A stretch of 64,000 nucleotides of DNA, taken from positions 7,435-71,434 of the forward strand of contig JASLLZ010000003.1 of the NCBI GenBank assembly GCA_030746775.1, given 5' to 3'. The DNA is from Rhodospirillales bacterium. GTDB taxonomy: Bacteria > Pseudomonadota > Alphaproteobacteria > Rhodospirillales > JASLLZ01. Every line of letters starts with the position of its first letter. Positions within the stretch are counted from its first letter, which is position 1. A program made the translations under genes and the position numbers. Under the pieces are notes generated by a model. It had not been told where the DNA came from. It did no database searches and saw nothing but the letters and a program-made list of their open reading frames with translations. Below are positions 11,533-33,257 of this stretch, piece after piece.

Positions 11533-11754
11533 ATTTCGTATCCCCTTTGCCGGAGTATTTCTCGTGATAAGGACAGCGAGGCGATCAGCCGCCGCCCATT
11601 CAAAATTTTCCTGGAACAGCAACACCGTTCAACTAACGTCGAAATAAGGTCACCACCAGAATATGTCAATAACCACTTGGACTCGCGACTATATTATGTG
11701 TTCACCCAAGAATCAAGGGAAACACGCCGTGACCCAAGGCGATACCAAAATCCT

Positions 11755-13982: not shown

Positions 13983-14042
13983 CGCGACGTGGGCGGCGAT
14001 GGACAGGGCGAAGCTTTTTTGTAAAGAGCCTATTTCGGCCTC

Positions 14043-14501: not shown

Positions 14502-14503
14502 GG

Positions 14504-15235: not shown

Positions 15236-15670
15236 TCATTCGATCCGCTGGTTCGTGTTCAAGCATTCAAGGAAACCTGTCCGCACAACCGCGGGTAGAC
15301 GGGTCGGCCGGCCGTCCGGGTTCATGCACACCAGGCGCAGGTTCATGTTGACCAGGTCGGTGCCGTCGCGCCGTACCGACTGCTCGGCGGTAAGGCTGCC
15401 GCCGCCGACCTCGACGATGCGCGTATGGACTTCAAGGCGGTCGTCCAGGCGTCCCGGCTTCATGTAATCGACCGTGCAATGGCGGACCGCGAAGGCGATG
15501 CCATTTTCGGCCATCAATTGGGATTGGTTGACGCCCATGTCACGCAACATCTCGGTGCGCGCCCTCTCGGCGAAGCGCAGGTAGTTGGCGTAATAGACGA
15601 TGCCGCCGGCGTCCGTGTCCTCGTAATAGACGCGCAGCGGAAAGACGTGAATGCCTTGCGGGTCAGCCAT
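15236..15670 (-). CDS. ybgC: Tol-Pal-associated acyl-CoA thioesterase YbgC (4HBT family)
   Basis: [21 protein letters not shown] hot-dog fold motif. Lies immediately upstream of tolQ. I chose the start at ATG 15670 to avoid overlapping ruvB. Confidence 0.85.
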
Positions 15671-16709
15671 CGCCGGCCTCCGCGTCGGCAATCATATCAA
15701 GTTGGGCGGCGGTGCTCGGCGGCGCCAGACCAAGGTGGCGGTAAGCGGACTCGGTAAGCATCCGGCCGCGCGGCGTGCGCATGAGGAACCCTTGTTGGAT
15801 AAGAAAGGGTTCGATGACTTCCTCGATGGTGTCGCGCTGTTCCGACAACGCCGCCGCCATGGTCTCCACTCCGACCGGTCCGCCGCCGTAGTTCTCGGCG
15901 ATGCAGCCGAGATAACGGCGGTCCATGGCGTCGAGTCCACTGCTGTCGACCTCCAGGCGGTTGAGCGCCACGTCGGCGGCGGCGGCATCCACCGCCGCGC
16001 CGCCGTCGATGGCGGCGAAGTCGCGCACCCGCCGCAACAGGCGGCCCGCCACCCGGGGCGTGCCGCGCGAACGGCGCGCGATCTCGACGGCGCCGTCGGG
16101 GGTCAGCTCGAGACCGAGGACCCGGGCGGCGCGGCGCACGATGTCTTCCAGTTCCTCGGCCGTGTAGAAAACGACGCGGAGCGGAATGCCGAAGCGTTCG
16201 CGCAAGGGCGTCGTGATCAGGCCGGCGCGGGTCGTGGCGCCAATCAGGGTGAACGGCGGCAGGTCGATGCGGATCGAGCGCGCCGCCGGACCCTCGCCGA
16301 TCATCAGGTCAAGCTGGAAGTCCTCCATGGCCGGATAGAGGATTTCCTCGACGGCGGGGGCAAGGCGGTGCATCTCGTCGATGAAAAGCACGTCGCGCGG
16401 CTGCAGGTTGGTGAGGATCGCCGCCAGGTCCCCGGCCTTGGTGATCACCGGCCCCGAGGTAGCGCGGAAGCCGACGCCCAGCTCGCGGGCGACGATCTGG
16501 GCCAAGGTCGTTTTGCCCAATCCCGGCGGTCCGTGAAAGAAGACGTGATCCAGGGCCTCGCCGCGGGCGCGCGCGGCGTCGATGAAGACACGCAGGTTCC
16601 GGCACAGCTTTTCCTGGCCGACGAACTCGTCGAGGACGGCGGGCCGCAGGCTGGCCTCGGGCGCGTCGCTCGCCTCCTCTTCGGGTGCCACGACCCGGTC
16701 CTCGCTCAT
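15663..16709 (-). CDS. ruvB: Holliday junction branch migration helicase RuvB
   Basis: 348 aa starting MSEDRVV. Walker [10 protein letters not shown], Walker B LFIDEMHR, and [17 protein letters not shown] overlap with the ruvA stop. Confidence 0.95.
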
Positions 16710-21221: not shown

Positions 21222-22229
21222 ATGGCAATTCGCGTGGCAATTAATGGATTTGGCCGTATCGGCAGGCTGGTGCTGCGGGCCATCTTCGAATCCGGGCGCC
21301 GGGACATCAAAGTGGTGGCGGTCAACGATCTCGGCTCGGCGGAAGCCAACGCGCACCTTTTGAAGTACGACACCGTGCACGGCGTCTTTCCCTTCGACGT
21401 CAAGGTCAAGGGTGACAACCTGATGATCGGTCGAAACGCCGTCGCGGTGAGCGCCGAAACCAACCCCGCCAAGCTGGCATGGAGGAAGTTCAAGGTCGAC
21501 GTGGCTATGGAGTGCACCGGCCGCTTCACGGACCGCGCCTCGGCGGCTCAGCTTCTCAAGGCGGGGGCGAAAAAGGTCCTGGTCTCGGCGCCGGCCAAGG
21601 GGGCCGACCTGACCGTGGTCTACGGCATCAACCACGATCAGTTGAGGAAAAAACACAAGGTCGTCTCCAACGCCTCGTGCACCACCAACTGCCTGGTGCC
21701 GGTGGTCGACGTCCTTAACAAGGCGGTCGGCATCGAACGAGGCTTCATGACCACCATCCACGCCTATACCGGCGACCAGCGCACCGTCGACACCCTGCAC
21801 GGGGATTTGCGCCGGGCGCGCGCCGCGGCATCGTCGATGATCCCCACCTCGACGGGGGCGGCACGCGCCGTCGGCCTTGTCCTGCCCGAGATGGAGGGCC
21901 GTCTCGACGGCACCGCCATCCGCGTGCCGACGAATAATGTCTCGATGGTCGACCTGGCCTTCGACGCCGGCAGGGAAACCACGGCCGATGCGATCAACAG
22001 GGCCATTTCGCGCGCCGCCAGGGGGCGCCTCAAGGGCGTGCTGGGCACCAATGACGAGCCCCTGGTCTCGATCGACTTCAACCACAACCCACTGAGTTCG
22101 GTTTTCGATTTGACCCAGACCCAGGTTATCGGCGGCACCTTCGTGCGCGTCCTGACGTGGTACGACAACGAATGGGGCTTCTCAAACCGCATGGCCGACA
22201 CCGCCGTCGCCATGTCTAAGGCAACGTGA
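21222..22229 (+). CDS. gap: type I glyceraldehyde-3-phosphate dehydrogenase
   Basis: INGFGRIGR and the active site SNASCTTNCL. 335 aa. Confidence 0.96.
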   Translation: MAIRVAINGFGRIGRLVLRAIFESGRRDIKVVAVNDLGSAEANAHLLKYDTVHGVFPFDVKVKGDNLMIGRNAVAVSAETNPAKLAWRKFKVDVAMECTGRFTDRASAAQLLKAGAKKVLVSAPAKGADLTVVYGINHDQLRKKHKVVSNASCTTNCLVPVVDVLNKAVGIERGFMTTIHAYTGDQRTVDTLHGDLRRARAAASSMIPTSTGAARAVGLVLPEMEGRLDGTAIRVPTNNVSMVDLAFDAGRETTADAINRAISRAARGRLKGVLGTNDEPLVSIDFNHNPLSSVFDLTQTQVIGGTFVRVLTWYDNEWGFSNRMADTAVAMSKAT

Positions 22230-22636
22230 CGGGACGCCCCGTCATCGTCCACTCGCTCGACCATGCCCGGGCGGTGCTCGCGGCGGCCGACGAACTTGGC
22301 GCCGCCGTGACGCTGCTGAGCGCGCCGGGCGCCGCCGCCTATCTCGGCGCCAGCGTCTTTCGCGACATGGTGGCCGAGGCCGCGCGGGGCTTTCCCGACG
22401 TCCCGGTCACCGCCGTCCTCGACTGCGGCAGCGAACCCGGACGGGCGCTCAACGCCCTGCGCCAGGGGATAAAGGCGCTGCGCCTCGATGCGTCGGCGGA
22501 CGTGCGGCGCCGGGTTGCCGAGATTGCCGCCCAGACGGGTGCGGGGCTGGATGAGGACGTGACGCCGGCCCTCGACCTTTTAGCCGTCGCCGACCCACAA
22601 GCCGCCTGCCGCGACTGGCTGTCGGCCGCCGGGTAG
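22226..22636 (+). CDS. hypothetical protein (136 aa), translationally coupled to gap
   Basis: The GTG start overlaps the gap stop (GTGA), and codon usage is like its neighbours. I recognise no motif. Confidence 0.5.
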   Translation: MTGRPVIVHSLDHARAVLAAADELGAAVTLLSAPGAAAYLGASVFRDMVAEAARGFPDVPVTAVLDCGSEPGRALNALRQGIKALRLDASADVRRRVAEIAAQTGAGLDEDVTPALDLLAVADPQAACRDWLSAAG

Positions 22637-22643
22637 GTCCATC

Positions 22644-23288
22644 ATGGCCACCGAATCATGCCGCCTTTATCTGATCACGCCGCCGCGCATCGATGTGGCG
22701 GATTTCGCCGAGGACCTGGCGCGCGCCCTCGACGGCGGCGACGTTGCTTGCGTTCAGTTGCGCCTCAAGGAAGCGGCGGACGACGATATCCGGCGCGCCG
22801 CCGAGGCCCTGCTGGCGGTGACCCGGGAACGCGGCGTCGAACTGTTGATGAACGACCGCCCGGACCTCGCCCGCGAGACCGGCTGCGACGGCGTTCACGT
22901 CGGTCAGCAAGACGCGACCTACGAAGCGGCGCGCCAGGCCGTCGGCGCCGAGGGCGTGGTCGGCGTCACCTGTCATGGGTCACGCGATTTGGCCGTCGAG
23001 GCGGCGGCCAAGGGGGCCGACTACGTCGCCCTCGGCGCCTTCTACCCGACCGACACAAAGGAGGCCAAAGCACGCGCCGAGCCCGACATCCTTGCCTGGT
23101 GGTCCGAGATGACCACGGTGCCGTCGGTCGCCATCGGCGGCATTACGCCCGCCAATTGTCCGCCCCTGGTCCGCGCCGGCGCCGATTTCCTGGCCGTCGT
23201 GGCGGCGGTCTGGAATCACCCGGACGGCCCCGCCCAGGCGGTCAAGGCCCTCGAGAAGGCCATCGCCGAAGCCCCGGAGTCCGAGTGA
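22644..23288 (+). CDS. thiE: thiamine-phosphate synthase
   Basis: LYLITP...VQLRLKE...LLMNDRPDLA...DGVHVGQQD...IGGI is the ThiE TIM-barrel pattern. Confidence 0.85.
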   Translation: MATESCRLYLITPPRIDVADFAEDLARALDGGDVACVQLRLKEAADDDIRRAAEALLAVTRERGVELLMNDRPDLARETGCDGVHVGQQDATYEAARQAVGAEGVVGVTCHGSRDLAVEAAAKGADYVALGAFYPTDTKEAKARAEPDILAWWSEMTTVPSVAIGGITPANCPPLVRAGADFLAVVAAVWNHPDGPAQAVKALEKAIAEAPESE

Positions 23289-23363
23289 ACGGCGCTTCGC
23301 GTTGCGCGGGGCGGGGTGACCTGATAGGGTCCGCGCCGCGAACCCACGAGCGCGGTCAAAGTC

Positions 23364-23933
23364 ATGAAGATAAACGGCAACGCCATCCGTCCCGGCATGG
23401 TGATAGAGCATCAGGACCGCCTGTGGCGGGCGGTCCGCATCCAGCATACCCAGCCCGGCAAGGGCGGCGCCTACCTGCAAGTCGAATTGAAGGACCTGCG
23501 CGGCGGCACCAAGCTTAACGAACGCTTCCGTTCCTCGGAAACGGTGGAGCGCGTTCGCCTGGAACAAAAGGCCTATCAGTTTCTCTATGCCGACGGCGAC
23601 ATGTACACCTTCATGGACAATGAGACCTACGAGCAGGTGACGATGGACGCCGACACCATCGGCGAAGACCAGGTGGCCTATCTGCAAGACGGCATGGAGG
23701 TAAAGATCGAGTCGTACGAGGGCGATCCCCTGGGCATCCAGTTGCCAGACTCGGTGACCCTGGAAGTGACCGAAGCGGACGCCGTGGTCAAGGGCCAGAC
23801 GGCTTCTTCGTCGTACAAGCCGGCGCTCCTGGAAAACGGCCTGCGCGTCCTTGTGCCGCCCCACATCGAGGCCGGCACCAGGGTCGTGATCAGCACCGCC
23901 GACGGCACTTACGTCGAACGGGCCAAGGACTAA
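23364..23933 (+). CDS. efp: elongation factor P
   Basis: 189 aa, with the [16 protein letters not shown] loop and OB-fold domains. Confidence 0.95.
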
Positions 23934-23946
23934 GCCTGAGCCGGCC

Positions 23947-24753
23947 ATGGCCGTTCGCTCCGCCCTTGTCAACGTCATGATCGGGGCCGCCCGCAAGGCG
24001 GCGCGGGCCTTGATTCGCGACTTCGGCGAGGTGCAGCACCTCCAGGTGTCGAAGAAAGGACCGGCTGATTTTGTCAGCGCCGCCGACCGCCATGCCGAGG
24101 ACATCTTATACAACGAACTCAAAAAAGCGCGCCCGGCCTACGGTTTTCTTATGGAAGAACGGGGCGTCGTCGAAGGCACGGACACCTCCAACCGATGGCT
24201 GATCGACCCCCTGGACGGGACGACCAATTTTCTGCACGGCCTTCCGCACTTCGCCATTTCAGTCGCCCTTGAGCGCGACGGGAACCTGATCGCGGGCGTG
24301 GTCTACGAGCCTATTCACGATGAAATGTTTTGGGCCGAGAAAGGGGGTGGCGCCTTTCTCAACGACCGCCGCATCCGGGTGTCGGCGCGGCGGCGCTTGG
24401 ACGAGTCCATCTTCGCCACCGGCATCCCGTTCAAAGGAAAGAGCGACCATGGCGTTTTCCTGCGCCAGCTTGGGGCGGTGATGGCGGTTTCCGCCGGTGT
24501 GCGGCGCTTCGGCGCGGCGGCGCTCGACTTGGCTTACGTGGCGGCGGGACGCTACGACGGATTTTGGGAGACCGGACTCAACCCCTGGGACATGGGCGCC
24601 GGGATCGTCCTCATCCGCGAGGCCGGCGGCTACGTCACGGCCATCGGCGGCGGCCGCGACCCCCAGCTCGGCAGCGATATTGTGGCCGCCAACGACCATC
24701 TGCACCGGGACCTTTTGTCGATTGTCGGCAAGGCCACGATCGATGGCGCGTGA
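23947..24753 (+). CDS. suhB: inositol monophosphatase family protein
   Basis: WLIDPLDGTTNF and WDMGAGIVLIREAGG motifs. Confidence 0.9.
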   Translation: MAVRSALVNVMIGAARKAARALIRDFGEVQHLQVSKKGPADFVSAADRHAEDILYNELKKARPAYGFLMEERGVVEGTDTSNRWLIDPLDGTTNFLHGLPHFAISVALERDGNLIAGVVYEPIHDEMFWAEKGGGAFLNDRRIRVSARRRLDESIFATGIPFKGKSDHGVFLRQLGAVMAVSAGVRRFGAAALDLAYVAAGRYDGFWETGLNPWDMGAGIVLIREAGGYVTAIGGGRDPQLGSDIVAANDHLHRDLLSIVGKATIDGA

Positions 24754-24855
24754 CGCGCCGGGCCACGGCGGCAAACGGGTTGTGCCGGGACCGCCCCTTG
24801 GTTATGGTGATTCGGCTTTGCCGGCAGTGGTGCCACAAGGCTTTGTTCTTCCGGT

Positions 24856-25845
24856 TTGGGGGACCGTGTAGCCATGAAATTCCTCCGACGTATCCGATCG
24901 TCGCGGCGGCCGGGTCAATCCTTTCCTTGCGTGACCGCCATCATCGCACTGGCGGCCCTCGCCGCCATGCCGAGCGGGGCCAAGGCTCAATCGGGTTCTT
25001 TCATCGATTACGGCAACGCCAACGTAACCGTTGACCTGAGCGTCATCGAAGATGGTGGCTATGGACCGGGCCAAGGCATTGCCTCGCCGAGCCTGCCCGT
25101 CCCGGGAACCTCCCACCGGCGCTTGTTGATGCCGGGATCCGGGATGCCGACCTCGCGCCTGCACCTTGCCGTGCCGGGGATGGCCCCATCGACCGCCAAG
25201 CCCGCCGCCCGCCCTGCCGCGGTGGCGCCGGCAAAAGCCCGCCCGAAGCCGGCGCCGGTCGCCCGCGCCCAGCCGGCAGCGGCGCCGCCGCCCCTGCCCA
25301 AGGTCAAGAAACCGGTGGCGGCCCCCAAACCGCCCAAGGCGGCCCCCAAGCCCAAGGTTACCGTCTCGGCGCCGCCGCCGCCGCCCGCCGCCAAACCGAA
25401 ACCAGCACCCGCGGTTAAGAAAGCTCCACCCCCGGCGCCGCCGCCGACCGTGACGGCAAAAAAGACACCTCCCGCCGCGCCCAAACCCCGCGAGCAGGCG
25501 TCGCGTCCTCCGGCACAGGGGGACATAGCGCCGGGACGAGCCTTGCGATTGGCCTTCGCCGAAAGCGCCCCCAAGATTTCGCCGGCGGTTCAAAATCAGT
25601 TGAAAACCCTGGCCCGCCAAATGCGGGAAAAATCGGACTTGCGTTTACAGCTTATGGCTTACGCCGGCGGCAAGGCTCTGTCGTCAAGCAAGGCCCGGCG
25701 GCTCTCGTTGTCGCGCGCCTTGTCGGTGCGCGCCTATCTCATCGAGAACGGCATTCGCAGCACCCGCATCGACGTCCGCGCGCTGGGCAACAAGACGACC
25801 GACGAACCGGTAAACCGCGTTGACGTGATGGTGGTCGCCCGGTGA
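24856..25845 (+). CDS. OmpA-domain protein with N-terminal hydrophobic segment and long Pro/Ala/Lys-rich spacer (TolA/TonB-like layout)
   Basis: N-terminal VTAIIALAALAAMPSGAKA, a spacer of about 110 aa (KPAPV, PPPPPAAKPKPAP), and a C-terminal OmpA-like region (RLSLSRALSVRAYLIENGI...RVDV). Confidence 0.75.
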   Translation: MGDRVAMKFLRRIRSSRRPGQSFPCVTAIIALAALAAMPSGAKAQSGSFIDYGNANVTVDLSVIEDGGYGPGQGIASPSLPVPGTSHRRLLMPGSGMPTSRLHLAVPGMAPSTAKPAARPAAVAPAKARPKPAPVARAQPAAAPPPLPKVKKPVAAPKPPKAAPKPKVTVSAPPPPPAAKPKPAPAVKKAPPPAPPPTVTAKKTPPAAPKPREQASRPPAQGDIAPGRALRLAFAESAPKISPAVQNQLKTLARQMREKSDLRLQLMAYAGGKALSSSKARRLSLSRALSVRAYLIENGIRSTRIDVRALGNKTTDEPVNRVDVMVVAR

Positions 25846-27026
25846 GTTCCGCCACGCCGTGGTCCGACCCCGGGGATTTCCAAGCCATGGCGCGGCCGCG
25901 GCGGTTTCTTGTCCGCATGGCGTTTTTTCTTGGCGCCGTCCTCGCCGGGGTGGCGGCTCTCTACGTACCGCTTAGCAACGCATTCGTGGCCAACGTGCCG
26001 CTCAACGGCCTAATACTCGGCGTCCTTTTTCTCGGCATAATCTATAATTTTCGCCAGGTCCTACAGCTCTATCCGGAGGTCGCGTGGATCGAAAGTTTCC
26101 GCCGCGACCAGACGACGCTTTCCCAATCGCGCCCACCCAAGCTGCTGGCCCCCATGGCGGTCATGCTGGGCGAACGGACGGATCTCAGACTGTCGACGCT
26201 GTCGCTGCGTTCCTTGTTGGACAGCATCAGCCTGCGCCTCGACGAAGCCCGCGACATCTCGCGTTACACCATTGGCCTTCTCATCTTTCTTGGACTGCTT
26301 GGAACCTTTTGGGGATTGCTTGAGACGGTGGCCTCGATCCGCGACGTCATCGGCGGGCTTTCGGTCACCAAGGGCGACATGGCAAAGGTCTTCAGCGACC
26401 TCAAGGGGGGCTTATCCGCCCCCCTGGCCGGCATGGGAACGGCGTTTTCGTCGTCGCTGTTCGGGCTCGGCGGATCGTTGGCCCTTGGCTTTCTCGACCT
26501 ACAGGCCAGCCAGGCGCAGCATCGCTTCTATAATGAGCTGGAAGAGTGGCTCTCCGGTCTGACGCGGCTGTCCAGCGGCGCCCTGTCCGCCGACGGCGAC
26601 CAATCGGTACCGGCCTACGTCCAGGCATTGTTGGAACAAAGCGCCGAGAGCCTGGAAAACCTGCAGCGGACCCTGGCCCGAGGCGAGGAAAATCGGATCA
26701 CCGCCAACACCAACCTGATGGCTCTGGTGGAGAAAATGGGAACCCTGACCGATCACATGCGGATCGAACAGTCCTTGATGAAGAAACTGGCCGAGAGCCA
26801 CTTGGATATGAAACCGATCCTTGAGCGCCTGGCCGATGCCGCCCAACCGGACTCGGGCAACCTGGACGAAGCGACGCGCACCCATATTCGCAACCTCGAC
26901 GTCTATATGGCGCGCTTGCTGGAAGACCTGAGCGCCGGGCGCGAGGAAGTCATTCAGCAAGTGCGCAGCGAGATCAAACTGTTGGCCCGCACCATCGCTG
27001 CCATCGCCGAGGAGTCGGACCGCTAA
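25842..27026 (+). CDS. MotA/TolQ/ExbB-like proton-channel protein with a C-terminal helical tail of about 170 aa
   Basis: The GTG start overlaps the upstream stop (GTGA). TM segments plus the LGLLGTFWGL...GMGTAFSSSLFGLGGSLALGFL signature, followed by a heptad-rich tail. Confidence 0.7.
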   Translation: MSSATPWSDPGDFQAMARPRRFLVRMAFFLGAVLAGVAALYVPLSNAFVANVPLNGLILGVLFLGIIYNFRQVLQLYPEVAWIESFRRDQTTLSQSRPPKLLAPMAVMLGERTDLRLSTLSLRSLLDSISLRLDEARDISRYTIGLLIFLGLLGTFWGLLETVASIRDVIGGLSVTKGDMAKVFSDLKGGLSAPLAGMGTAFSSSLFGLGGSLALGFLDLQASQAQHRFYNELEEWLSGLTRLSSGALSADGDQSVPAYVQALLEQSAESLENLQRTLARGEENRITANTNLMALVEKMGTLTDHMRIEQSLMKKLAESHLDMKPILERLADAAQPDSGNLDEATRTHIRNLDVYMARLLEDLSAGREEVIQQVRSEIKLLARTIAAIAEESDR

Positions 27027-27048
27027 ACGGCCGGCGCAGCCGAAACCC

Positions 27049-28284
27049 ATGCCCGCCCTTTCACGCCGTTTTCGCCAAGAAACCAACATCTGGCCCGGGT
27101 TCGTTGATGCCCTGGCGACGCTGCTCATGGTCATCATCTTTCTGGTCATGATCTTTGTGCTCGCCCAGTTTTTTCTCAGCGAGGCCCTGTCGGGCCGCGA
27201 CGCGGCCTTGCAAAGGCTGGAGAACCAAGTCAGCGAGCTGGCTGACCTTCTGGCGCTGGAGCGAAAGAGCAGCGAGGAGCTTCGTCTCGACGTGGCGCAG
27301 TTGGCCGGCGAACTACAGTCTTCGGTGGCGGCGCGCGACGACCTCATATCCACCATCGAAGCCCTGACCATTCGCGCCGAGAAGAGTGAGACCAAGTCGG
27401 CGCGTCTCGACAAGGAATTGGAAGAAGCCTTCGCCACGATTATGGCCGGCAAGGACAAGATAGAGCTTCAAGTGCGCCAGATCGTCAAATTGACGCAACA
27501 GGTCACGGCGCTCCAGGCCCTCAAGGACGACCTTGAGGGCGAGATCGCCCGTTTGGCCGGAAAACTGGGAAAAACCGAGGAGAGCCTGGCCCAATCCGAG
27601 GCCGAGCGCGAAAAGACGCGCACGGCCCTGGGCGCGGAGCGCGAACTATCGGAAAGCGCCCGTGCCCATCTGGCGCTTCTCAACCGCCAGATGGCGGCCC
27701 TGCGCGAGCAACTGTCCAAATTGTCGGCGACCCTGGCCGAATCGGAATCCCGGGCCGAACGCCAGAAGGTTCAGATTTCCTCGCTCGGCCGGCGCCTGAA
27801 TGCCGCGCTGGCCAGCAAGGTACAAGAACTGTCGCGATACCGCTCCGAGTTCTTCGGCCGCCTACGCGAAGTGTTGGGGCGCCAACCGGGAATTCGCATC
27901 GTCGGCGACCGTTTCGTCTTTCAATCCGAGGTTCTGTTCGCCACCGGCTCGGCCGACATCGGCGACGCCGGCAAGGATCAGCTTGCCCGTCTGGCCTCCA
28001 CGCTTGGCGAAATCTCGCCCAAAATTCCCACGGAACTTAACTGGATACTGCGTATCGACGGACATACCGACCGGGTGCCCATCAACACCGCCCAGTACCC
28101 ATCCAACTGGGAACTGTCGACGGCACGCGCCATCTCCGTGGTCCGCTTCCTGATCGCGACGGGAATTCCGGCCGAGCGCCTGGCGGCGACCGGATTTGGC
28201 GAGAACCAACCGATCGACGACCGCGATGACGAAATCGGACGGCGGCGCAATCGCCGCATCGAATTGAAACTCACCCAGCGCTGA
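27049..28284 (+). CDS. MotB/TolR-like protein with long coiled coil and C-terminal OmpA/MotB peptidoglycan-binding domain
   Basis: IWPGFVDALATLLMVIIFLVM (plug/TM segment with Asp), a heptad-rich segment of about 230 aa, then F.S..A.I......L...GHTD...NWELSTARA...NRRIEL. Confidence 0.8.
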   Translation: MPALSRRFRQETNIWPGFVDALATLLMVIIFLVMIFVLAQFFLSEALSGRDAALQRLENQVSELADLLALERKSSEELRLDVAQLAGELQSSVAARDDLISTIEALTIRAEKSETKSARLDKELEEAFATIMAGKDKIELQVRQIVKLTQQVTALQALKDDLEGEIARLAGKLGKTEESLAQSEAEREKTRTALGAERELSESARAHLALLNRQMAALREQLSKLSATLAESESRAERQKVQISSLGRRLNAALASKVQELSRYRSEFFGRLREVLGRQPGIRIVGDRFVFQSEVLFATGSADIGDAGKDQLARLASTLGEISPKIPTELNWILRIDGHTDRVPINTAQYPSNWELSTARAISVVRFLIATGIPAERLAATGFGENQPIDDRDDEIGRRRNRRIELKLTQR

Positions 28285-28294
28285 CGAACACCCC

Positions 28295-29476
28295 GTGCCG
28301 GCTCTCTTTCCAATCGTCGTCATCGACCTTATCGGATTTGGGATCGTCATTCCCCTGCTGCCGTTCTATGCCGAGCGATTCCAGGCCGCCCCGGACGTCG
28401 TCGCCCTTCTCATGGCGACCTATTCCTTTACCCAATTCCTATCGACGCCGATTTGGGGGCGGGCCAGCGACCTTTGGGGACGGCGCCCCATCCTTTTGCT
28501 CTCGCTGGCCGGCGCCGTGGCTTCGTATACCTGGTTGGCCTTTGCCGACGGTTTGTGGATGCTGTTCGCGGCGCGTGCCCTGGGCGGCATCATGGCCGGC
28601 AATATATCCGCCGCCTTCGCTTATGTGGCCGACATCACGACGGCGAAGGATCGGGCCAAGGGCATGGGTCTGGTGGGCGCCGCCTTTGGCCTGGGTTTTG
28701 TCATCGGTCCCGCCTTGGGCGGCATCCTGGCCGGCCCCGATCCTCTCACCGCCGACTACCGGACACCCTCCTTGGCCGCCGCCGGACTATCGCTGACCGC
28801 CCTGGTATTGGCCCTGATCATCCTCAAGGAATCCCTGTCACCGGAGATCCGCGCCCGTCTTGCCCAACAACCCGTCCAACCCAGGCTGGCCCTATTCATT
28901 GAGGTTCTGGGGCGACGCGAGGTCGGACTGTTGATCGCCATCACGTTCCTGGCGACCTTTGTTTTCGCCGGCATGGAGGCCGTCTTCGCCCTTTGGTCCG
29001 AACGTACGATGGGGTGGGGCCCGGAACAAAACGGCTATCTGTTCGCCTTTGTCGGCGTGCTCGGCGCGTTGGTGCAAGGGGGACTCATGGGGCGTCTGGC
29101 GCGACGGTTCGGGGAAGCAAACCTGATCGTGCAGGGCGCGGTGGCCCTGGCGCTCGGGCTTGTTGCGCTGCCTTTCTCCGATACCTTGGCATTCCTCCTT
29201 CCCGCCATGCTCTTCTTGGTTTACGGTTTCAGTATTTGCACGCCGTCGCTCAACAGCCTGATTTCGAAGCGGGTGGGAGCGGACGAACAGGGCAAGGTTT
29301 TGGGAGTCACGCGCTCGGCCTCCACCCTGGCCCGGGTGGCGGGACCCGCATGGGCCGGATTCCTGTTCACCGCCCTGGGCAAGAGCTGGCCCTTCTTCGG
29401 CGGAGCGGTGGTCATGATCGGCGTGTTGTTTCTTGGGCTTAGGGTGCGCCGGCGGCGGCGTGCGAACACCTCTTGA
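28295..29476 (+). CDS. MFS transporter (drug/H+ antiporter-like)
   Basis: 393 aa with about 12 hydrophobic segments. GRASDLWGRRPILL is the MFS loop 2-3 motif. Confidence 0.85.
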   Translation: MPALFPIVVIDLIGFGIVIPLLPFYAERFQAAPDVVALLMATYSFTQFLSTPIWGRASDLWGRRPILLLSLAGAVASYTWLAFADGLWMLFAARALGGIMAGNISAAFAYVADITTAKDRAKGMGLVGAAFGLGFVIGPALGGILAGPDPLTADYRTPSLAAAGLSLTALVLALIILKESLSPEIRARLAQQPVQPRLALFIEVLGRREVGLLIAITFLATFVFAGMEAVFALWSERTMGWGPEQNGYLFAFVGVLGALVQGGLMGRLARRFGEANLIVQGAVALALGLVALPFSDTLAFLLPAMLFLVYGFSICTPSLNSLISKRVGADEQGKVLGVTRSASTLARVAGPAWAGFLFTALGKSWPFFGGAVVMIGVLFLGLRVRRRRRANTS

Positions 29477-29529
29477 ACGGGGCCCAATGCTTAGGTATAC
29501 AGGGCAGTTCAGCGGCGGGAGCATAGGCC

Positions 29530-29754
29530 ATGAAGAAAGACATCCACCCCGACTACCACGAGATCAACGTCGTCATGACCGACGGCACGACCTTCGCCAC
29601 GCGCTCGACGTGGGGCAAGGCCGGCGACACCATGAAGCTTGACATCGACCCGAAGTCCCACCCCGCCTGGACCGGCGTTCACCGGCTCATGGACAGCGGC
29701 GGCCAGTTGGCTAAATTCAACAAGAGGTTTAAAGACTTTCAGATCAAGAATTAG
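29530..29754 (+). CDS. rpmE: 50S ribosomal protein L31
   Basis: [19 protein letters not shown]...HPAWTG...KFNKRF. 74 aa. Confidence 0.93.
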
Positions 29755-29879
29755 GCCGGTGCCTTTCAATCTGACCCGGCAAATTTGGTGTTCCAAGGAG
29801 ACTCCGGCGGATTCGGCGCGAAATTGGCTGTACTTGGTGCGCGGGGGACGAACCCAAGAGTCCGCGAGGGCTTAAGACG

Positions 29880-30752
29880 ATGATGAAGGCACAATTCGAC
29901 GATGTCGACTTGATGCTGGTCGATCCGGCTCAGGGGACCCGCGAGTCGATCAGGAATATTCTCCACAATCAGGGCTTCCGAAACCTGGGTACGGGCACCC
30001 GGCTCAAGGAGATTCAAAAACGGTTCGACACCGCGACACCGGATTTGCTGATTAGCGAAATCGCTCTCGAAGATGGCGATTTCTGCGCCTTCGTCACCGA
30101 TGTGCGCCAAAACAACGTGGGCAACAATCCCTTCCTCCCGGTGGTCGGACTGACGTCCAATCCGACCCCGGATCTGGTGAAAGTTGCCGTCAACTCGGGT
30201 ATCGATCACCTGTTGATCAAACCCTTTTCCGCCGGCCAGTTGATGGATCGCATCAATGCGCCGATTGAGGCGCGGAACCCGTTCATCGTGACCTACGATT
30301 ACATCGGCCCGGAACGCCGCACGGGGGATCAACGCTCGAGCGAGATCCCCCACATGGACGTACCCAACATCTTGAGGGCCAAGGCTTTCGGACAAATGGA
30401 AGCCTTGGATGCCGAGAAAGCCATCAAAACCGCCCAGACCAAGATCAATATCCGCAAGTTGGAACGCGACATCTTCCAAATCGGCTTCCTCGTCCGACAT
30501 ATCACGACCAGTTTGGAAAAAGGGATCGTGGACAACACGACTTCCGCCTTCTTGTCGCGTCTCTTGGAGGTGATCGACGAGACCCAGCGACGGGTGGTCA
30601 ACACCCGGCACGCCGATCTCGCCGAGCGATGCAAGTCCCTGGCCAAGGTCACCAATACCATTGTTGCGTCCGAGGGAAACCCGGGATTCGATGAAATCGT
30701 CCAGCTGAAGCTTTTGAGCCAGGGCATTCAAAAAAGCTTCGACCTAGCGTAG
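29880..30752 (+). CDS. receiver (REC)-like domain protein with Glu at the phospho-acceptor position plus an uncharacterised C-terminal domain
   Basis: Residues 10-125 align with CheY-like receivers (LMLVDP..., DLLISEIALEDGD, VVGLTS, LLIKPF). The D57-equivalent residue is E. I do not recognise the C-terminal 160 aa or so. Confidence 0.6.
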   Translation: MMKAQFDDVDLMLVDPAQGTRESIRNILHNQGFRNLGTGTRLKEIQKRFDTATPDLLISEIALEDGDFCAFVTDVRQNNVGNNPFLPVVGLTSNPTPDLVKVAVNSGIDHLLIKPFSAGQLMDRINAPIEARNPFIVTYDYIGPERRTGDQRSSEIPHMDVPNILRAKAFGQMEALDAEKAIKTAQTKINIRKLERDIFQIGFLVRHITTSLEKGIVDNTTSAFLSRLLEVIDETQRRVVNTRHADLAERCKSLAKVTNTIVASEGNPGFDEIVQLKLLSQGIQKSFDLA

Positions 30753-31046
30753 CGTCCCGAACCCAGGGCTACGGCCCGGTTCGGCATGCAAGCCCCCGGT
30801 CCCTCATTACCCGACCAGCATTACTTGAATGGTTTCCAATACGGCGTGACGTGTTTGCCTGTCGCGTTAATCGTGATAAAATGCTTTGCTTGTCTTGGTT
30901 TACACTCACGTCCTGAAGATATGCTTTCATACTCTTGCACGCTGCTCGATAAATGCAGCCTTTCTCAAGGGTATAATCATCTGGTGGTGAAATAGGCCAA
31001 GAGAGCGGCCACGTTTGAGTGGAGGCTCGGCCCATCGGGGAGCGGC

Positions 31047-33257
31047 ATGGCGCGCAATATCACTTACGAGATTATGGTCCAGCAGGGAACCCGGTGGGAA
31101 ATCCATGCGCGCCATGGCGGCGCTCATAAGGAGGCCGCCCTCAACGAGGCCAAGGCCCTGGAACTACTGCCCAAGATTACGGCCGTAAAAGTCATCAAGG
31201 AAACATACGACACGCAAGACGGCGACACCCAGGAAACCACCGTCTATAAGAGCGCCGCCATCACGGTCAAGGACGAGGCGGGCGCCGGGGTATCGACTGG
31301 CCCCTCGCGCGTTACTCCTTCTCCGTTCGGGCGTGCGAGAGGCCCGCGATCGCCCGCCAGGGTGGCCAGGCGAGCAAGGCACCGCCCGGCCAGGGCATCG
31401 GCCCCGGCCAGGATGGGTATCTTCACCAAGATTCTTCTGGTCATATTTTTCAGCATCGCCTTCGCCGCCTTGATCACCGGCGTGATGGCACTGATCATAC
31501 GGGATTTCTCTGTCTTCGGAATGAATATCAGCGCCAACGCCTATGCCAACATTCTGTTCGGCGTATTCGTCGTCGGCTTTCTGTTCAGCGCCGTCCCCTT
31601 GTCCCTCAAGTTCCTTTCGAATGAAGGGCTGAGTTCGAACGCCACCCGTAGACGCGCCGACCGGGCACCTGCCAGACCGGCCAGGAAACCGCCCAAGAAG
31701 GAAAAGAAGTTAGAAAAGGAGAACGAGGAACCGCCGCCGCCATCGATCGATGCCGAAGACTTGCCGACGGACAAGGAAGAAGGGCCCGAAGCGGAAGAAC
31801 CGGCCGAGGAGAAAAAGGCGGAAGAAGAAGCGGAGCAAGAAGAACCCGTCGAGGAAGAAGAGCATCCCGACGGCGATTTGTCGCCCGAAGGCGAAGCTCA
31901 AAAGGTCTATATGATGACGTTTCTGGGCCAGGCCCTGGAGCACGTAAAGGCGGTGAACAAGTCGATGGACAATTTCAACAAGTTCGGCGTCAACCTGTTC
32001 CTTGCCGGCGCCTGCGAAGCCATGAGCAGCGACCGCAACATGGATGACGCCGACTGCATCGCGGTGCTTGGCGAAATGGTCGAGGTGATGGGCTTCAAGA
32101 AGGACCAGGCGATCTCGTTCGCCAACAAGTGCGACGAGTACCTGCTCGCCGATTCGCGTTACATGCAAATGTACCAGGCCGGCCGTAATGCCATGAACAC
32201 CTTCATAGGCGGCGATGCCGACGGCCCCAGGCAGCTCCAGGATGCCCTGGTTGAGTGGGACAAGCCCAAACCCAAGGAAGCGGATAGCGGCCCCGTCACC
32301 GTCATGTTCACCGATATGGTGGGATCCACCAGTCTAACCCAGACATGGGGCGATGAGGTGGCCCAGCAGGTGGTGCGCGCCCACAACCGGATCGTCCGCG
32401 ACGCCCTGAACACTTATGGGGGCAAGGAGGTCAAACACACCGGCGATGGCATCATGGCTTCGTTTCCCACCACGTCGAACGGCGTCGAGGCGGCCATCTT
32501 CATTCAGCAAAAAGCGGCAATCCATAATAACTCCAACGCCGAACTGCCTCTGCTCTTGAAGATCGGGATCAACGCCGGCGAGCCCATTGCCGAGGACGAC
32601 GACCTGTTCGGATCAACGGTCCAGTTGGCGGCGCGCATCGTCGACAAGGCCGCTTCCGAGGAAATTTACGTTTCCGAGATCGTGCGCGGGATATGTGCCG
32701 GCAAGGACTTCAAGTTTTCCAATCAGGGCGGCTTCGAAATGAAGGGCTTCTCCGAGCCGATCACCCTCTTCGAAGTCTTGTGGGAAGAGACCGAGGCCCA
32801 GGAGACCGGGCAAGCCACGCAAGACGAGACCGAACCGACGCCGGCGGTGCCCGATCCAACGCCCGACGAGGCGAAACAAGAGGCGCCCGAGATCCAGGCC
32901 CCGGCCCAGGAGCCGACACCGGCTGGTGCCTCGGCTCCGGCACCGGCTGGCCCCTCGGCCCCGGCACCGGCTGGCCCCTCGGCCCCGGCACCGGCTGGCC
33001 CTTCGGCCCCGGCACCGGCTGGCCCTTCGGCTCCGGCGGCGGCTGTCCCTTCGGCTCCGGCTGAAAAACCTTCCCGATCCGCGCCATCGGAAGCCAGCCC
33101 GCCCCCTCAGCCCGGTGCGGCCGCCAATCCCGCCGGCGCGATGGCAGAGCCAAACCCGGCCCTTCGCCCCGTACCACCAAGCGAGGCGGCGACCAAACCC
33201 CAGCCCGCGCCCACGGGCGGCGCGCCGGCGCAAGAGGCCCCAAAGCAAGGGGCCTGA
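31047..33257 (+). CDS. membrane-anchored class III adenylate/guanylate cyclase with acidic linker and Pro/Ala-rich repeat tail
   Basis: Two TM helices at about residues 125-200 and a KKE/EEE-rich linker. The CHD core is VTVMFTDMVGSTSL...KHTGDGIMASF...IGINAGEP...GSTVQLAARI. Confidence 0.85.
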   Translation: MARNITYEIMVQQGTRWEIHARHGGAHKEAALNEAKALELLPKITAVKVIKETYDTQDGDTQETTVYKSAAITVKDEAGAGVSTGPSRVTPSPFGRARGPRSPARVARRARHRPARASAPARMGIFTKILLVIFFSIAFAALITGVMALIIRDFSVFGMNISANAYANILFGVFVVGFLFSAVPLSLKFLSNEGLSSNATRRRADRAPARPARKPPKKEKKLEKENEEPPPPSIDAEDLPTDKEEGPEAEEPAEEKKAEEEAEQEEPVEEEEHPDGDLSPEGEAQKVYMMTFLGQALEHVKAVNKSMDNFNKFGVNLFLAGACEAMSSDRNMDDADCIAVLGEMVEVMGFKKDQAISFANKCDEYLLADSRYMQMYQAGRNAMNTFIGGDADGPRQLQDALVEWDKPKPKEADSGPVTVMFTDMVGSTSLTQTWGDEVAQQVVRAHNRIVRDALNTYGGKEVKHTGDGIMASFPTTSNGVEAAIFIQQKAAIHNNSNAELPLLLKIGINAGEPIAEDDDLFGSTVQLAARIVDKAASEEIYVSEIVRGICAGKDFKFSNQGGFEMKGFSEPITLFEVLWEETEAQETGQATQDETEPTPAVPDPTPDEAKQEAPEIQAPAQEPTPAGASAPAPAGPSAPAPAGPSAPAPAGPSAPAPAGPSAPAAAVPSAPAEKPSRSAPSEASPPPQPGAAANPAGAMAEPNPALRPVPPSEAATKPQPAPTGGAPAQEAPKQGA
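32913..33062. repeat. 24-bp tandem repeat, about 5.5 copies (encodes SAPAPAGP units) in the cyclase 3' end
   Basis: Units start at 32931, 32955, 32979, 33003 and 33027: tcggcyccggcaccggctggcccy, the fifth (33027) divergent. There are degenerate partial copies at both ends. Confidence 0.9.

What the first reader, a model, noticed from the sequence alone, without database searches (positions are those of the whole stretch)
24856..28284. Three-gene Tol/Ton/Mot-like envelope motor paralogue with two peptidoglycan-binding partners and unknown function
Three same-strand genes are tightly linked. Genes 1 and 2 overlap in a GTGA at 25842-25845, and gene 3 starts 22 nt after gene 2. Gene 2 carries the MotA/ExbB/TolQ channel signature (LGLLGTFWGL...GMGTAFSSSLFGLGGSLALGFL) plus a helical tail of about 170 aa. 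Gene 3 has a MotB/TolR-type TM segment with the conserved Asp (IWPGFVDALATLLMVIIF). It then has about 230 aa of heptad-rich sequence and an OmpA/MotB domain. Gene 1 has a TolA/TonB-like layout: an N-terminal hydrophobic anchor or signal, then about 110 aa of Pro/Ala/Lys spacer. However, it ends in an OmpA-like domain. The canonical ybgC-tolQRAB-pal-cpoB cluster is present in the same window (9792-15670). No flagellar, TonB-receptor or Zorya accessory genes flank this module; its neighbours are suhB and an MFS transporter. It therefore looks like a distinct ion-driven stator-type machine whose output is unknown. The long coiled coil on the MotB-like subunit and the double peptidoglycan anchoring are unusual.
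Basis: partly seen in the sequence, partly recalled or inferred. Interest (0 to 1): 0.72.

Follow-up and report, generated by a model that had tools for sequence, protein, structure and literature searches.

The report
Uncharacterised alphaproteobacterial peptidoglycan-anchored ion motor
These genes encode a conserved but unstudied relative of the ion-driven rotary motors that power flagella, Tol/Ton and Zorya; it is found next to housekeeping genes across Alphaproteobacteria and has an unusually long periplasmic rod tethering it to the cell wall, and nobody appears to know what it does.

Summary
The three genes are real and co-oriented, but two details need correction. Gene 2 most likely starts at ATG 25887, not at the GTGA overlap. 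Gene 1 is a secreted periplasmic protein with a cleavable signal peptide and a divergent OmpA-like domain, not a TolA/TonB-like anchor.

The conserved core is the pair g2+g3. They were adjacent in 70 of 70 informative loci, lie next to the suhB-like gene, and are present with the same synteny in Sinorhizobium meliloti. g1 is a lineage-specific accessory (58 of 65 close loci; absent in S. meliloti).

g2 is a deeply divergent member of the MotA/ExbB/TolQ/ZorA superfamily, with four transmembrane helices, invariant LGLLGTFWGL and GMGTAFSSS channel motifs, and a helical cytoplasmic tail of about 175 aa. g3 belongs to NCBIfam PRK09039. It has an invariant Asp20 in its transmembrane helix, a coiled coil of about 230 aa in one heptad register whose length varies (347-657 aa overall, by heptad indels and tandem duplications), and a MotB-type peptidoglycan-binding domain.

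It is not a flagellar stator, a Tol/Ton paralogue or a Zorya system: their models do not match, no effectors are nearby, and it is absent from plasmids and phages. The best reading is a peptidoglycan-tethered, proton-driven 5:2 motor with unknown output. I found no characterised orthologue.

The parts
24780..24808 (+). Conserved promoter-like element TTGTGC-N17-TATGGT (with a conserved CCCTTGG block) in the suhB-g1 intergenic region
   Evidence: The pattern CTTGG[CTG]TAT[GC][GT]T occurs 18 times in 0.97 Mb of window plus loci, against about 1.4 expected. Sixteen of these hits lie at the same place upstream of g1 in the window and its closest relatives, each preceded by GTTGT 16-17 nt upstream. 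It is below the threshold of the generic promoter scan. Function is inferred, not shown.
24874..25845 (+). g1: secreted periplasmic accessory protein (323 aa from ATG 24874). Signal peptide residues 1-38 (AKA|Q); conserved NVTVDLSVIEDGG motif (25021-25059); RRLLMPGSGMPTSRLHL motif (25117-25167); Pro/Ala/Lys spacer (25168-25542); divergent OmpA-like domain (25543-25842)
   Evidence: Pfam OmpA E 1.1e-10. The orthologue architecture is signal peptide, two motifs, spacer, OmpA-like domain. AYAGG replaces GHTD and Ala replaces the Asn of NxxLSxxRA. No NCBIfam TolA or TonB model matched. g1 is adjacent to g2 in 58 of 65 loci and absent in S. meliloti.
25887..27026 (+). g2: A-subunit (MotA/ExbB/TolQ/ZorA superfamily), 379 aa. 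TM1 25917-25973; TM2 26001-26051; cytoplasmic loop; TM3 with LGLLGTFWGL 26289-26318 (Thr140); TM4 GMGTAFSSS... 26430-26495 (Ser188/190); cytoplasmic helical tail 26496-27023 with a disordered linker at 26571-26606 and the conserved C-terminal motif RSEIKLLARTIAAIA at 26964-27008
   Evidence: Start inferred from orthologues. PADLOC ZorA1 E 1.7e-13 and ZorA3 E 6e-7; Pfam MotA_ExbB 17.4 bits; 61 of 84 family members hit PF01618. AF2 helical topology. Foldseek top 50 hits are all ExbB/TolQ/ZorA/MotA/PomA. hhalign to the window's TolQ gives 91% probability over 53 columns. Invariant columns are listed.
27049..28284 (+). g3: B-subunit, PRK09039-family peptidoglycan-binding protein, 411 aa. TM helix 27088-27177 with invariant Asp20 (27106-27108); periplasmic coiled coil 27178-27876 (weak or break zone at 27559-27606; conserved distal module 27643-27879); MotB-type OmpA-like domain 27892-28281 (GHTD 28060-28071; NWELSTARA 28105-28131)
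   Evidence: NCBIfam NF006543 scores 463 bits against a cutoff of 305. Pfam OmpA E 1.1e-17. W15, V19 and D20 are at least 98% conserved in 73 orthologues. A single heptad register runs from residue 8 to about 238, and lengths are quantised modulo 7. AF2 places helices at 16-173 and 187-276. Foldseek best hits are MotS, MotB and PomB. g3 is adjacent to g2 in 70 of 70 loci.

Best explanation
g2 and g3 most likely form an inner-membrane, proton-driven 5:2-type rotary motor unit.

Proposed assembly and mechanism:
- A dimer of g3 sits inside a pentamer of g2.
- The invariant Asp20 of g3 faces the invariant Thr140 and Ser188/190 of g2's last two transmembrane helices, forming the ion path.
- The g3 dimer continues straight from its transmembrane helices into a long parallel coiled-coil rod in the periplasm. 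Its end carries a conserved linker module and a MotB-type domain that binds peptidoglycan.
- With g3 held by the wall, ion flow turns the g2 ring. The ring's cytoplasmic tail of about 175 aa (a proximal helix, a flexible linker and a helical hairpin) is the mechanical or signalling output, as in ZorAB.

Genomic setting: the module is chromosomal, vertically inherited housekeeping equipment of Alphaproteobacteria. It lies beside the suhB-like gene and probably has its own promoter. It is not a motility, nutrient-uptake or phage-defence device.

Likely role: its biological role is most likely in envelope homeostasis, by PMF-dependent coupling or sensing between the inner membrane and the wall.

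g1: this is a lineage-specific periplasmic accessory protein. Its conserved N-terminal strand-like motif may dock onto the machine.

What is shown: homology, conserved residues, topology, synteny and distribution.
What is inferred: 5:2 stoichiometry, rotation, proton use, peptidoglycan binding, tail output and the biological role.
For: - Superfamily membership of g2: ZorA and MotA_ExbB HMM hits; only 5:2 A-subunits in the fold search; hhalign to TolQ at 91% probability.
- Invariant channel motifs and invariant g3 Asp20 across 73-84 orthologues.
- g3's C-terminal domain has the canonical GHTD and NWELSxARA residues and is structurally closest to MotS, MotB and PomB.
- g2 and g3 are adjacent in 70 of 70 loci, and their identities co-vary (r = 0.74).
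- The same pair lies next to the suhB-like gene and thiE in S. meliloti, at 48% and 40% identity.
- None of about 72,500 genuine plasmids and no phage carries it; the only hits are 5 mislabelled chromosomes.
- No PADLOC effector is in the flanks.
- The coil register is continuous from the transmembrane helix, and AF2 predicts a single helix from residue 16 to 173.
- Coil length is free to vary, which fits a tether rather than a ruler.
- A conserved promoter-like element lies upstream of g1.
Against: - No experimental data exist for any member. Stoichiometry and rotation are extrapolated from distant relatives.
- The window's g2 is below Pfam's gathering score, and the core-only profile finds no significant PDB match.
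- The monomer AF2 models are of only moderate confidence (pLDDT 62.6 and 70.7).
- A straight coil of 19-65 nm is far longer than the inner membrane to peptidoglycan distance of about 9 nm quoted for E. coli (PMC11946911). Its geometry is therefore unexplained.
- The g2 tail is poorly conserved between orders: the S. meliloti tail lacks the C-terminal motif. This weakens the idea of a conserved cytoplasmic partner.
- No candidate output partner is encoded nearby.
Confidence: 0.58

Rival explanations
1. Drive-shaft model (GldLM-like). The g2 pentamer is held still, for example through its cytoplasmic tail. The g3 dimer is the moving part: its rigid, register-continuous coiled coil transmits rotation or torsion across the periplasm to the wall or to g1, doing mechanical work on the envelope.
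For: The heptad register is uninterrupted from the transmembrane helix through about 230 residues, and indels are quantised in heptads. AF2 predicts one continuous helix from 16 to 173. In GldLM, the B-like subunit has a long periplasmic extension that acts as the rotor (established knowledge; reviewed in PMC9389320). g1 has a conserved N-terminal motif that could serve as a docking box.
Against: g3 ends in a canonical MotB-type peptidoglycan-binding domain, which would immobilise it. Coil length varies from about 130 to about 440 residues, even among relatives about 90% identical, which is hard to reconcile with a shaft that must reach a fixed partner. Heptad-quantised indels are expected for any coiled coil. 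g1 is dispensable in many lineages.
Confidence: 0.15
2. Static tether or scaffold. The pair has lost motor activity and simply links the inner membrane to peptidoglycan, or forms a periplasmic coiled-coil scaffold, with g2 acting as a membrane chaperone or anchor.
For: The coil is long and its length is variable, which is typical of structural spacers. No output partner is encoded nearby.
Against: Asp20 of g3 and the Thr/Ser-bearing channel motifs of g2 are invariant across about 70-84 orthologues and in S. meliloti. That conservation is not expected without ion-coupled function.
Confidence: 0.1
3. Spare or specialised flagellar stator (MotAB/MotCD-type paralogue), as the public annotation 'flagellar motor protein MotA' suggests.
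For: NCBI names several homologues 'flagellar motor protein MotA' and JGI names g3 homologues 'chemotaxis protein MotB'. g2 has a four-transmembrane-helix MotA-like topology. The g3 domain is closest to MotS, MotB and PomB.
Against: No NCBIfam model of any kind, flagellar stator models included, matches g2 at E<=0.1. The g3 scores for the MotB and MotD equivalogs are far below their cutoffs. MotB_plug matches 0 of 52 members. There are no flagellar genes nearby; the locus is a fixed housekeeping one from Rhodospirillales to S. meliloti. S. meliloti has separate motA, motB and motC genes in its flagellar regulon (from established knowledge, not tested here). A 230-aa coiled coil is not a stator linker.
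Confidence: 0.05
4. Orphan or degenerate Zorya-type anti-phage sensor (ZorAB without effectors).
For: The best named HMM hits are ZorA1 (E 1.7e-13) and ZorB3 (E 5e-26). The only 5:2 subunits recovered from PDB by sequence are ZorA 8vvn and 8qyh. Both systems have a cytoplasmic helical tail on the A subunit.
Against: The ZorA1 match covers only 163 of 683 profile positions at 48 bits. The tail is about 175 aa, against about 500 aa in ZorA. No ZorC, D, E, F or G is nearby. Housekeeping synteny is conserved and inheritance looks vertical. The module is absent from plasmids and phages. The core-only similarity to ZorA is not significant.
Confidence: 0.05
5. Third Tol/Ton-like energy transducer, with g1 as the TolA/TonB-equivalent.
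For: g1 has a Pro/Ala/Lys-rich spacer that resembles TonB or TolA linkers. The three genes are linked in 58 of 65 close loci.
Against: g1's N-terminus is a cleavable signal peptide with a variable h-region and an AxA|Q site. No NCBIfam TolA or TonB model matches g1, and no TolQ, ExbB, TolR or ExbD model matches g2 or g3 in the relevant parts. hhalign of the g3 family against TolR finds nothing. g1 is absent in S. meliloti and several other lineages.
Confidence: 0.03

Closest known systems
ZorAB core of the Zorya anti-phage system (ZorA5B2; PDB 8QYD-series and 8VVN; PMC11946911, PMC11890865)
   Same: The A-subunit has Thr- and Ser-bearing last two transmembrane helices followed directly by a cytoplasmic helical tail. 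The B-subunit has a transmembrane Asp, no MotB-type plug, and a dimeric OmpA-like peptidoglycan-binding domain. ZorA and ZorB are the best named HMM matches, and ZorA is the only PDB sequence match.
   Different: The tail is about 175 aa with a disordered break and a hairpin, against a continuous tail of about 500 aa. g2 has four predicted transmembrane helices, whereas three are named for ZorA in PMC11946911. The B-subunit carries a periplasmic coiled coil of about 230 aa that ZorB lacks. There are no ZorC, D, E, F or G effectors. The module is chromosomal, syntenic and vertically inherited rather than located in defence islands. Core sequence similarity is not significant.
Flagellar stator MotAB/PomAB/MotPS
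   Same: Four-transmembrane-helix A-subunit topology. The B-subunit has an N-terminal transmembrane Asp and a C-terminal peptidoglycan-binding domain whose fold is closest to MotS, MotB and PomB. The A gene is immediately upstream of the B gene.
   Different: No flagellar MotA equivalog matches g2, there is no MotB_plug, and there is no flagellar gene context. The cytoplasmic loop is only about 70 aa. A long coiled coil replaces the short flexible linker.
TolQR(-TolA) and ExbBD(-TonB)
   Same: Same superfamily. hhalign of the g2 family against the window's own TolQ gives 91% probability around the LGxxGTxWG helix. All are envelope-associated, PMF-type machines.
   Different: g2 and g3 fail the TolQ, ExbB, TolR and ExbD models. 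g3 has an OmpA-like domain rather than a TolR/ExbD periplasmic domain. There is no membrane-anchored TolA/TonB partner. The genuine tol-pal cluster is elsewhere in the window.
GldLM / PorLM gliding and type IX secretion motor
   Same: A 5:2 motor whose B-like subunit carries a long, rigid dimeric periplasmic extension (from established knowledge; PMC9389320).
   Different: No detectable sequence relationship. GldM's extension is made of globular domains and ends at an outer-membrane ring rather than in a peptidoglycan-binding domain.
NCBIfam PRK09039 'peptidoglycan-binding protein' (NF006542-NF006546)
   Same: g3 is a bona fide member: NF006543 scores 463 bits against a cutoff of 305.
   Different: The family is a naming model only; no function is attached to it.

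Membership tests
MotA/ExbB/TolQ/ZorA superfamily (5:2 motor A-subunit) | Profile-HMM match to the channel-forming helices (Pfam PF01618) | tested here: met
   The window protein scores 17.4 bits, below the gathering score of 22.9. However, 61 of 84 diverse family members match (best E 1.1e-8). PADLOC ZorA models match at E 1.7e-13 to 6e-7. hhalign against TolQ gives 91% probability.
MotA/ExbB/TolQ/ZorA superfamily (5:2 motor A-subunit) | Fold of the A-subunit | tested here: met
   All top 50 Foldseek PDB hits are ExbB, TolQ, ZorA, MotA or PomA. The scores are weak, though (best E 2e-3, TM-score about 0.5 on the target), and the model's pLDDT is 62.6.
MotA/ExbB/TolQ/ZorA superfamily (5:2 motor A-subunit) | A5B2 stoichiometry and ion-driven rotation | not testable with these tools
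   No multimer prediction or experiment was available.
Flagellar stator MotA/MotB | Match to curated flagellar MotA/PomA and MotB equivalog models | tested here: not met
   g2 matches 0 NCBIfam families at E<=0.1. g3 scores 119 bits for MotD (cutoff 283) and 44-69 bits for MotB models (cutoffs 250-301).
Flagellar stator MotA/MotB | MotB plug helix (PF13677) | tested here: not met
   No hit for the window's g3 and 0 of 52 family members.
Flagellar stator MotA/MotB | B-subunit transmembrane helix with the essential Asp, plus an OmpA-like peptidoglycan-binding domain | tested here: met
   Asp20 is at least 98% conserved. OmpA E 1.1e-17. The fold is closest to MotS, MotB and PomB.
Flagellar stator MotA/MotB | Flagellar gene context or regulon | tested here: not met
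   The flanks are gap, thiE, efp, a suhB-like gene, an MFS gene and a cyclase gene in 80 loci and in S. meliloti.
Zorya (ZorAB plus effectors) | Full-length ZorA with a long (about 500 aa) tail | tested here: not met
   The ZorA1 match covers profile positions 106-268 of 683 at 48 bits. The g2 tail is about 175 aa.
Zorya (ZorAB plus effectors) | Adjacent ZorC/ZorD, ZorE or ZorF/ZorG | tested here: not met
   A PADLOC scan of 7 flanking proteins found no Zor hits. The only hits were weak PycC matches to a generic class III cyclase domain.
Zorya (ZorAB plus effectors) | Patchy, mobile, defence-island distribution | tested here: not met
   The housekeeping locus is fixed across orders. There is no match in phages or in genuine plasmids.
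Tol-Pal / TonB energy transducers | TolQ/ExbB and TolR/ExbD equivalog matches | tested here: not met
   No such NCBIfam hits for g2 or g3, whereas the window's real TolQ and TolR score 270 and 133 bits. hhalign of the g3 family against TolR gives 1% probability.
Tol-Pal / TonB energy transducers | Uncleaved N-terminal anchor on the TolA/TonB partner that engages the motor | tested here: not met
   g1 has a charged n-region, a variable h-region and an AxA|Q site, i.e. a cleavable signal peptide. No NCBIfam TolA or TonB model matched.
NCBIfam PRK09039 peptidoglycan-binding protein | Score above the curated cutoff of NF006543 | tested here: met
   463.4 bits against a cutoff of 305.
OmpA-like peptidoglycan-binding domain (for g1) | Canonical DAP-contacting Asp (GxTD) and Asn/Arg (NxxLSxxRA) | tested here: not met
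   g1 orthologues carry AYAxG and ARRLSLSRA: the Asp and Asn are replaced and only the Arg is kept. g3 keeps all three. The domain itself is recognised by PF00691 (42 bits).

The most novel reading that the evidence does not exclude
Alphaproteobacteria possess a third, class-wide, housekeeping envelope motor besides Tol and Ton. It is a ZorAB-like 5:2 rotary machine whose B-subunit is built as a long rigid coiled-coil rod ending on peptidoglycan. The motor converts proton flow into mechanical work or a signal between the wall and the cytoplasm, for example monitoring or maintaining inner-membrane-to-wall coupling. It may represent the cellular lineage from which Zorya's phage sensor was recruited.
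Probability: 0.3. Interest if true: 0.8.

Novelty: new variant of a known kind. Interest (0 to 1): 0.62.

Why it matters
Five-to-two ion-driven motors are now recognised as a general bacterial way of turning membrane potential into mechanical work. They drive flagella, Tol, Ton, gliding and type IX secretion, and Zorya.

This module would add a further family:
- It is very large: more than 8000 homologues (capped), and 600 clusters at 50% identity with E<=1e-30.
- It is vertically inherited in a major bacterial class that includes rhizobia, magnetotactic bacteria and pathogens.
- It has a novel architecture: a long coiled coil on the B-subunit and a short ZorA-like tail on the A-subunit.
- It has no known function.

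Genetically tractable hosts carry it, including Sinorhizobium meliloti and probably Magnetospirillum. The question 'what does a non-flagellar, non-Tol/Ton, non-defence peptidoglycan-anchored motor do?' is therefore directly testable. It also corrects misleading public annotation ('flagellar motor protein MotA', 'chemotaxis protein MotB').

Tried and rejected
1. Ten literature searches found no characterised orthologue. They covered MotA/MotB-like terms, ZorAB-like terms, PRK09039, PDB 8VVN, 5:2 motor phylogeny and S. meliloti locus tags. The mBio 2025 stator phylogeny (PMC12505986) only lumps such proteins as 'generic ion transporters' of unknown function.
2. I tried to map the S. meliloti orthologues to SMc tags through the 'suhB' sRNA locus (SMc04042/04043). 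This failed: SMc04041 is pldB and SMc04042 is a different IMPase paralogue, the histidinol-phosphate phosphatase. No Tn-seq value could therefore be retrieved.
3. The Krol 2020 Rgs/Tol paper and the two Gupta 'signature protein' papers contain no MotA- or OmpA-type entries.
4. Rfam scans of the window (22000-31000) and of the S. meliloti locus found no RNA family, including the 'suhB' motif.
5. Generic terminator and promoter scans were at chance level. CtrA, EcfG, sigma-32 and RpoN motif searches upstream of g1 were negative.
6. A core-only g2 profile against PDB gave no significant hit. 'Closest to ZorA' is therefore only weakly supported, and part of the earlier signal came from the helical tail.
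7. A hairpin model of the g3 coil was considered because of the AF2 break at 174-186. I disfavour it because tandem duplications of 123 aa occur in one arm only, while the distal arm is indel-free.
8. Cluster-name look-ups of divergent representatives gave only 'hypothetical' or 'MotA' labels.
9. A profile search intended to reach model organisms returned mostly uncultured Rhodospirillales-type MAGs.

Full report
**Observation**

The window contains three co-oriented ORFs at 24856-25845, 25842-27026 and 27049-28284. The tetranucleotide GTGA is present at 25842-25845, and g3 begins 22 nt after the g2 stop.

Two boundaries need correction:
- g2 start. Homologues of g2 are overwhelmingly 378-383 aa. 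In about 70 orthologous loci the protein begins MTRPxxFLxRM. That corresponds to ATG 25887 in the window, with GGGGA 11 nt upstream. g1 and g2 are therefore separated by 41 nt, and the GTGA 'overlap' is an artefact of extending the ORF to the first possible start.
- g1 start. g1 most plausibly starts at ATG 24874 (MKFLRR...).

**Gene 2**

- Pfam's MotA_ExbB model scores 17.4 bits against the window protein, below the gathering score of 22.9. No NCBIfam model matches at all, although the window's own TolQ and TolR match their equivalog models.
- PADLOC's ZorA1 model matches at E 1.7e-13, and ZorA3 models match the channel core at about 1e-6.
- At family level, 61 of 84 diverse representatives match PF01618, with a best E of 1e-8.
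- A profile-profile comparison with the window's own TolQ gives 91% probability over 53 columns around the LGxxGTxWG helix.
- An AlphaFold model (pLDDT 62.6) shows two N-terminal transmembrane helices, a cytoplasmic helical region, two further transmembrane helices and a tail. The tail consists of a proximal helix, a disordered linker (227-242) and a helical hairpin (243-318, 328-378).
- Foldseek against PDB returns only A-subunits of 5:2 motors (ExbB, TolQ, ZorA, MotA, PomA), with weak scores.
- A full-length family profile finds just one membrane protein in PDB, the Shewanella type I ZorA 8VVN (E 3e-4). With the tail removed nothing is significant, and only two ZorA entries surface at E of about 5.
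- The channel motifs LGLLGTFWGL (Thr140) and GMGTAFSSS (Ser188/190) are invariant or nearly so.

g2 is therefore a deeply divergent branch of the superfamily. Any preference for ZorA is weak.

**Gene 3**

- g3 is a bona fide member of NCBIfam PRK09039 'peptidoglycan-binding protein': NF006543 scores 463 bits against a cutoff of 305. This family has a name but no function.
- Its N-terminus (IWPGFVDALATLLM) carries Asp20, which is at least 98% conserved together with W15 and V19 in 73 orthologues. The motif is also present in S. meliloti.
- MotB_plug (PF13677) matches neither the window protein nor any of 52 relatives.
- The C-terminal domain has the canonical GHTD and NWELSTARA residues. It matches MotB, MotS, PomB and TssL in sequence and MotS, MotB and PomB in structure (E 1e-10).
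- Between the transmembrane helix and this domain, the hydrophobic a/d pattern stays in one heptad register from residue 8 to about 238, with a weak zone at 176-190.
- AlphaFold predicts a single helix from 16 to 173, a break at 174-186 and a second helix at 187-276.
- Length is plastic: 347-495 aa in the loci and up to 657 aa in relatives about 90% identical. Of 193 homologue lengths, 127 differ from 411 by a multiple of seven, against about 28 expected by chance. Many of these sequences are close relatives, so the counts are not independent.
- The longest variants arise from exact tandem duplications in the first coil arm. A 123-aa block is present once more in a 534-aa protein and twice more in a 657-aa protein. 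Residues 200-290 and the OmpA domain never carry indels.

This argues for a parallel rod or leash of free length with a conserved distal module. It argues against a fixed ruler or a paired hairpin.

**Gene 1**

- Orthologues share a consistent architecture: a positively charged n-region, a variable hydrophobic h-region, and an AxA|Q-type cleavage site. Within about 30 residues comes a conserved strand-like motif (VxVDLSVLdxLG). After that come a second motif (LLxPGxxxPxSxLHV), a Pro/Ala/Lys spacer (125 aa in the window; P 32%, A 27%, K 14%) and an OmpA-like domain.
- No NCBIfam TolA or TonB model matches.
- The OmpA-like domain is recognised by Pfam (42 bits). However, it carries AYAxG where g3 has GHTD, and Ala where g3 has the Asn of NxxLSxxRA. 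phmmer with g3's domain does not detect it.

g1 is therefore a secreted periplasmic protein whose peptidoglycan binding is doubtful. It is not a TolA/TonB-like anchored transducer.

**Conservation and context**

- In 80 genome loci from Rhodospirillales-type and other Alphaproteobacteria (55-75% identity), the gene order gap, FBA-like small ORF, thiE, efp, suhB-like, g1, g2, g3 recurs. It is often followed by the MFS gene and the cyclase gene.
- g3 follows g2 in 70 of 70 loci with enough sequence. g1 precedes g2 in 58 of 65. The suhB-like gene lies within 2.5 kb in 62 of 65. g2 and g3 identities co-vary (r = 0.74). g2 is as conserved as the suhB-like gene.
- A mislabelled S. meliloti chromosome in PLSDB shows thiE, sel1, IMPase, g2 (48% identity), g3 (40% identity), without g1.
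- Apart from five such chromosome-sized records, no plasmid and no phage carries either gene.
- The family is large: more than 8000 hits (capped) in one search and 600 clusters at 50% identity with E<=1e-30 in the other.
- None of the seven flanking proteins matches a Zorya effector.
- The window's genuine tol-pal cluster is confirmed at 9792-15691 and is the only other MotA/ExbB-type locus in the window.
- A conserved promoter-like element (TTGTGC-N17-TATGGT with a CCCTTGG block, 24780-24808) lies upstream of g1 in the window and its closest relatives. Sixteen of the 18 occurrences in 0.97 Mb lie at that position, against about 1.4 expected. No intrinsic terminator separates the genes.

**Interpretation**

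The shown facts fit a MotAB/ZorAB-type unit:
- an A-subunit-like channel protein paired with a B-subunit-like protein bearing the essential transmembrane Asp;
- a canonical MotB-type wall-binding domain on that B-subunit;
- strict pairing and co-evolution of the two genes;
- invariant ion-path residues.

In this reading a g3 dimer, tethered to peptidoglycan through its coiled-coil rod, is encircled by a g2 pentamer that rotates as protons pass. The g2 cytoplasmic tail is the output, by analogy with ZorA (PMC11946911). Stoichiometry, rotation, ion type, wall binding and the role of the tail are inferences.

The housekeeping, vertically inherited, non-mobile distribution argues against phage defence. 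The failed flagellar models and the gene context argue against a stator. The failed TolQ, TolR, ExbB, ExbD, TolA and TonB tests argue against a Tol/Ton paralogue.

A GldLM-like drive-shaft reading, in which g3 is the moving part, remains possible because the coil is continuous with the transmembrane helix. The canonical wall-binding domain and the freely varying coil length count against it.

What the motor acts on is unknown. My best guess is envelope homeostasis or envelope sensing. The unexplained point is why the rod is 19-65 nm long when the wall is only about 9 nm from the membrane (the figure quoted for E. coli in PMC11946911).

**Novelty and limits**

No paper in the accessible library describes this module. 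The recent stator phylogeny groups such proteins as generic ion transporters of unknown function (PMC12505986). Subscription-only literature was not searchable, so a prior characterisation cannot be excluded.

I rate it a new variant of a known kind (5:2 ion-driven motors) with moderately high interest.

Noticed in passing
window 24780-24808: A conserved promoter-like element (TTGTGC-N17-TATGGT, with an invariant CCCTTGG block) lies between the suhB-like gene and g1. It is shared at the same position by the 16 closest loci. It is too weak at the -35 hexamer for the generic scan to report it. It could equally be a regulator-binding site.
   Followed up: partly
P0352, P0354, P0353, P0362 (relatives of window 27049-28284): Near-identical relatives of g3 carry exact tandem duplications inside the coiled coil: a 123-aa block once or twice more, a 144-aa block, and repeats of about 50 aa. 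This gives proteins of 534-657 aa. These are either real, recent length expansions or assembly artefacts in metagenomes.
   Followed up: partly
window 23947-24753: The 'suhB' neighbour scores below the curated cutoffs for both inositol monophosphatase (236 vs 332 bits) and histidinol-phosphatase HisN (175 vs 275 bits). In S. meliloti an IMPase-family paralogue (SMc04042) was shown to be the missing histidinol-phosphate phosphatase (PMC5929573). The label suhB is therefore uncertain.
   Followed up: partly
window 22226-22636: A 136-aa ORF between gap and thiE resembles only the N-terminal ~85 residues of class II fructose-bisphosphate aldolase (E 1.7e-9). It is conserved as a short ORF in many orthologous loci, and was called as a 157-aa gene in L081-L083. 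It may be a conserved aldolase-derived small protein rather than a pseudogene.
   Followed up: no
window 28295-29476: A Tet(A)-family-like MFS transporter (222 bits against a cutoff of 475) starts only 10 nt after the g3 stop. It follows g3 in roughly half of the related loci but not in S. meliloti. It may be co-transcribed with g1-g3.
   Followed up: partly
window 31047-33257: A 736-aa membrane protein has a class III adenylate/guanylate cyclase domain (residues ~417-570) and a C-terminal low-complexity tail with tandem PAPAGPSA repeats. It recurs downstream of the module in many Rhodospirillales-type loci. In L081-L083 an IS1595-family transposase is inserted next to it.
   Followed up: no
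window 29880-30752: A 290-aa protein has an N-terminal receiver (CheY-like) domain and a C-terminal region that matches no family. It lies between the MFS gene and the cyclase gene.
   Followed up: no
P0121, P0122, P0151, P0176, P0234, P0274, P0276 (relatives of window 25887-27026): Some g2 homologues are 447-614 aa, with the query tail matching in 2-4 separate stretches. The cytoplasmic tail, like the g3 coil, therefore seems to expand by internal duplication in some lineages.
   Followed up: no
public annotations of homologues: Homologues are variously named 'flagellar motor protein MotA', 'chemotaxis protein MotB', 'gas vesicle protein' and 'membrane associated rhomboid family serine protease'. 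None of these names is supported by the evidence here.
   Followed up: yes
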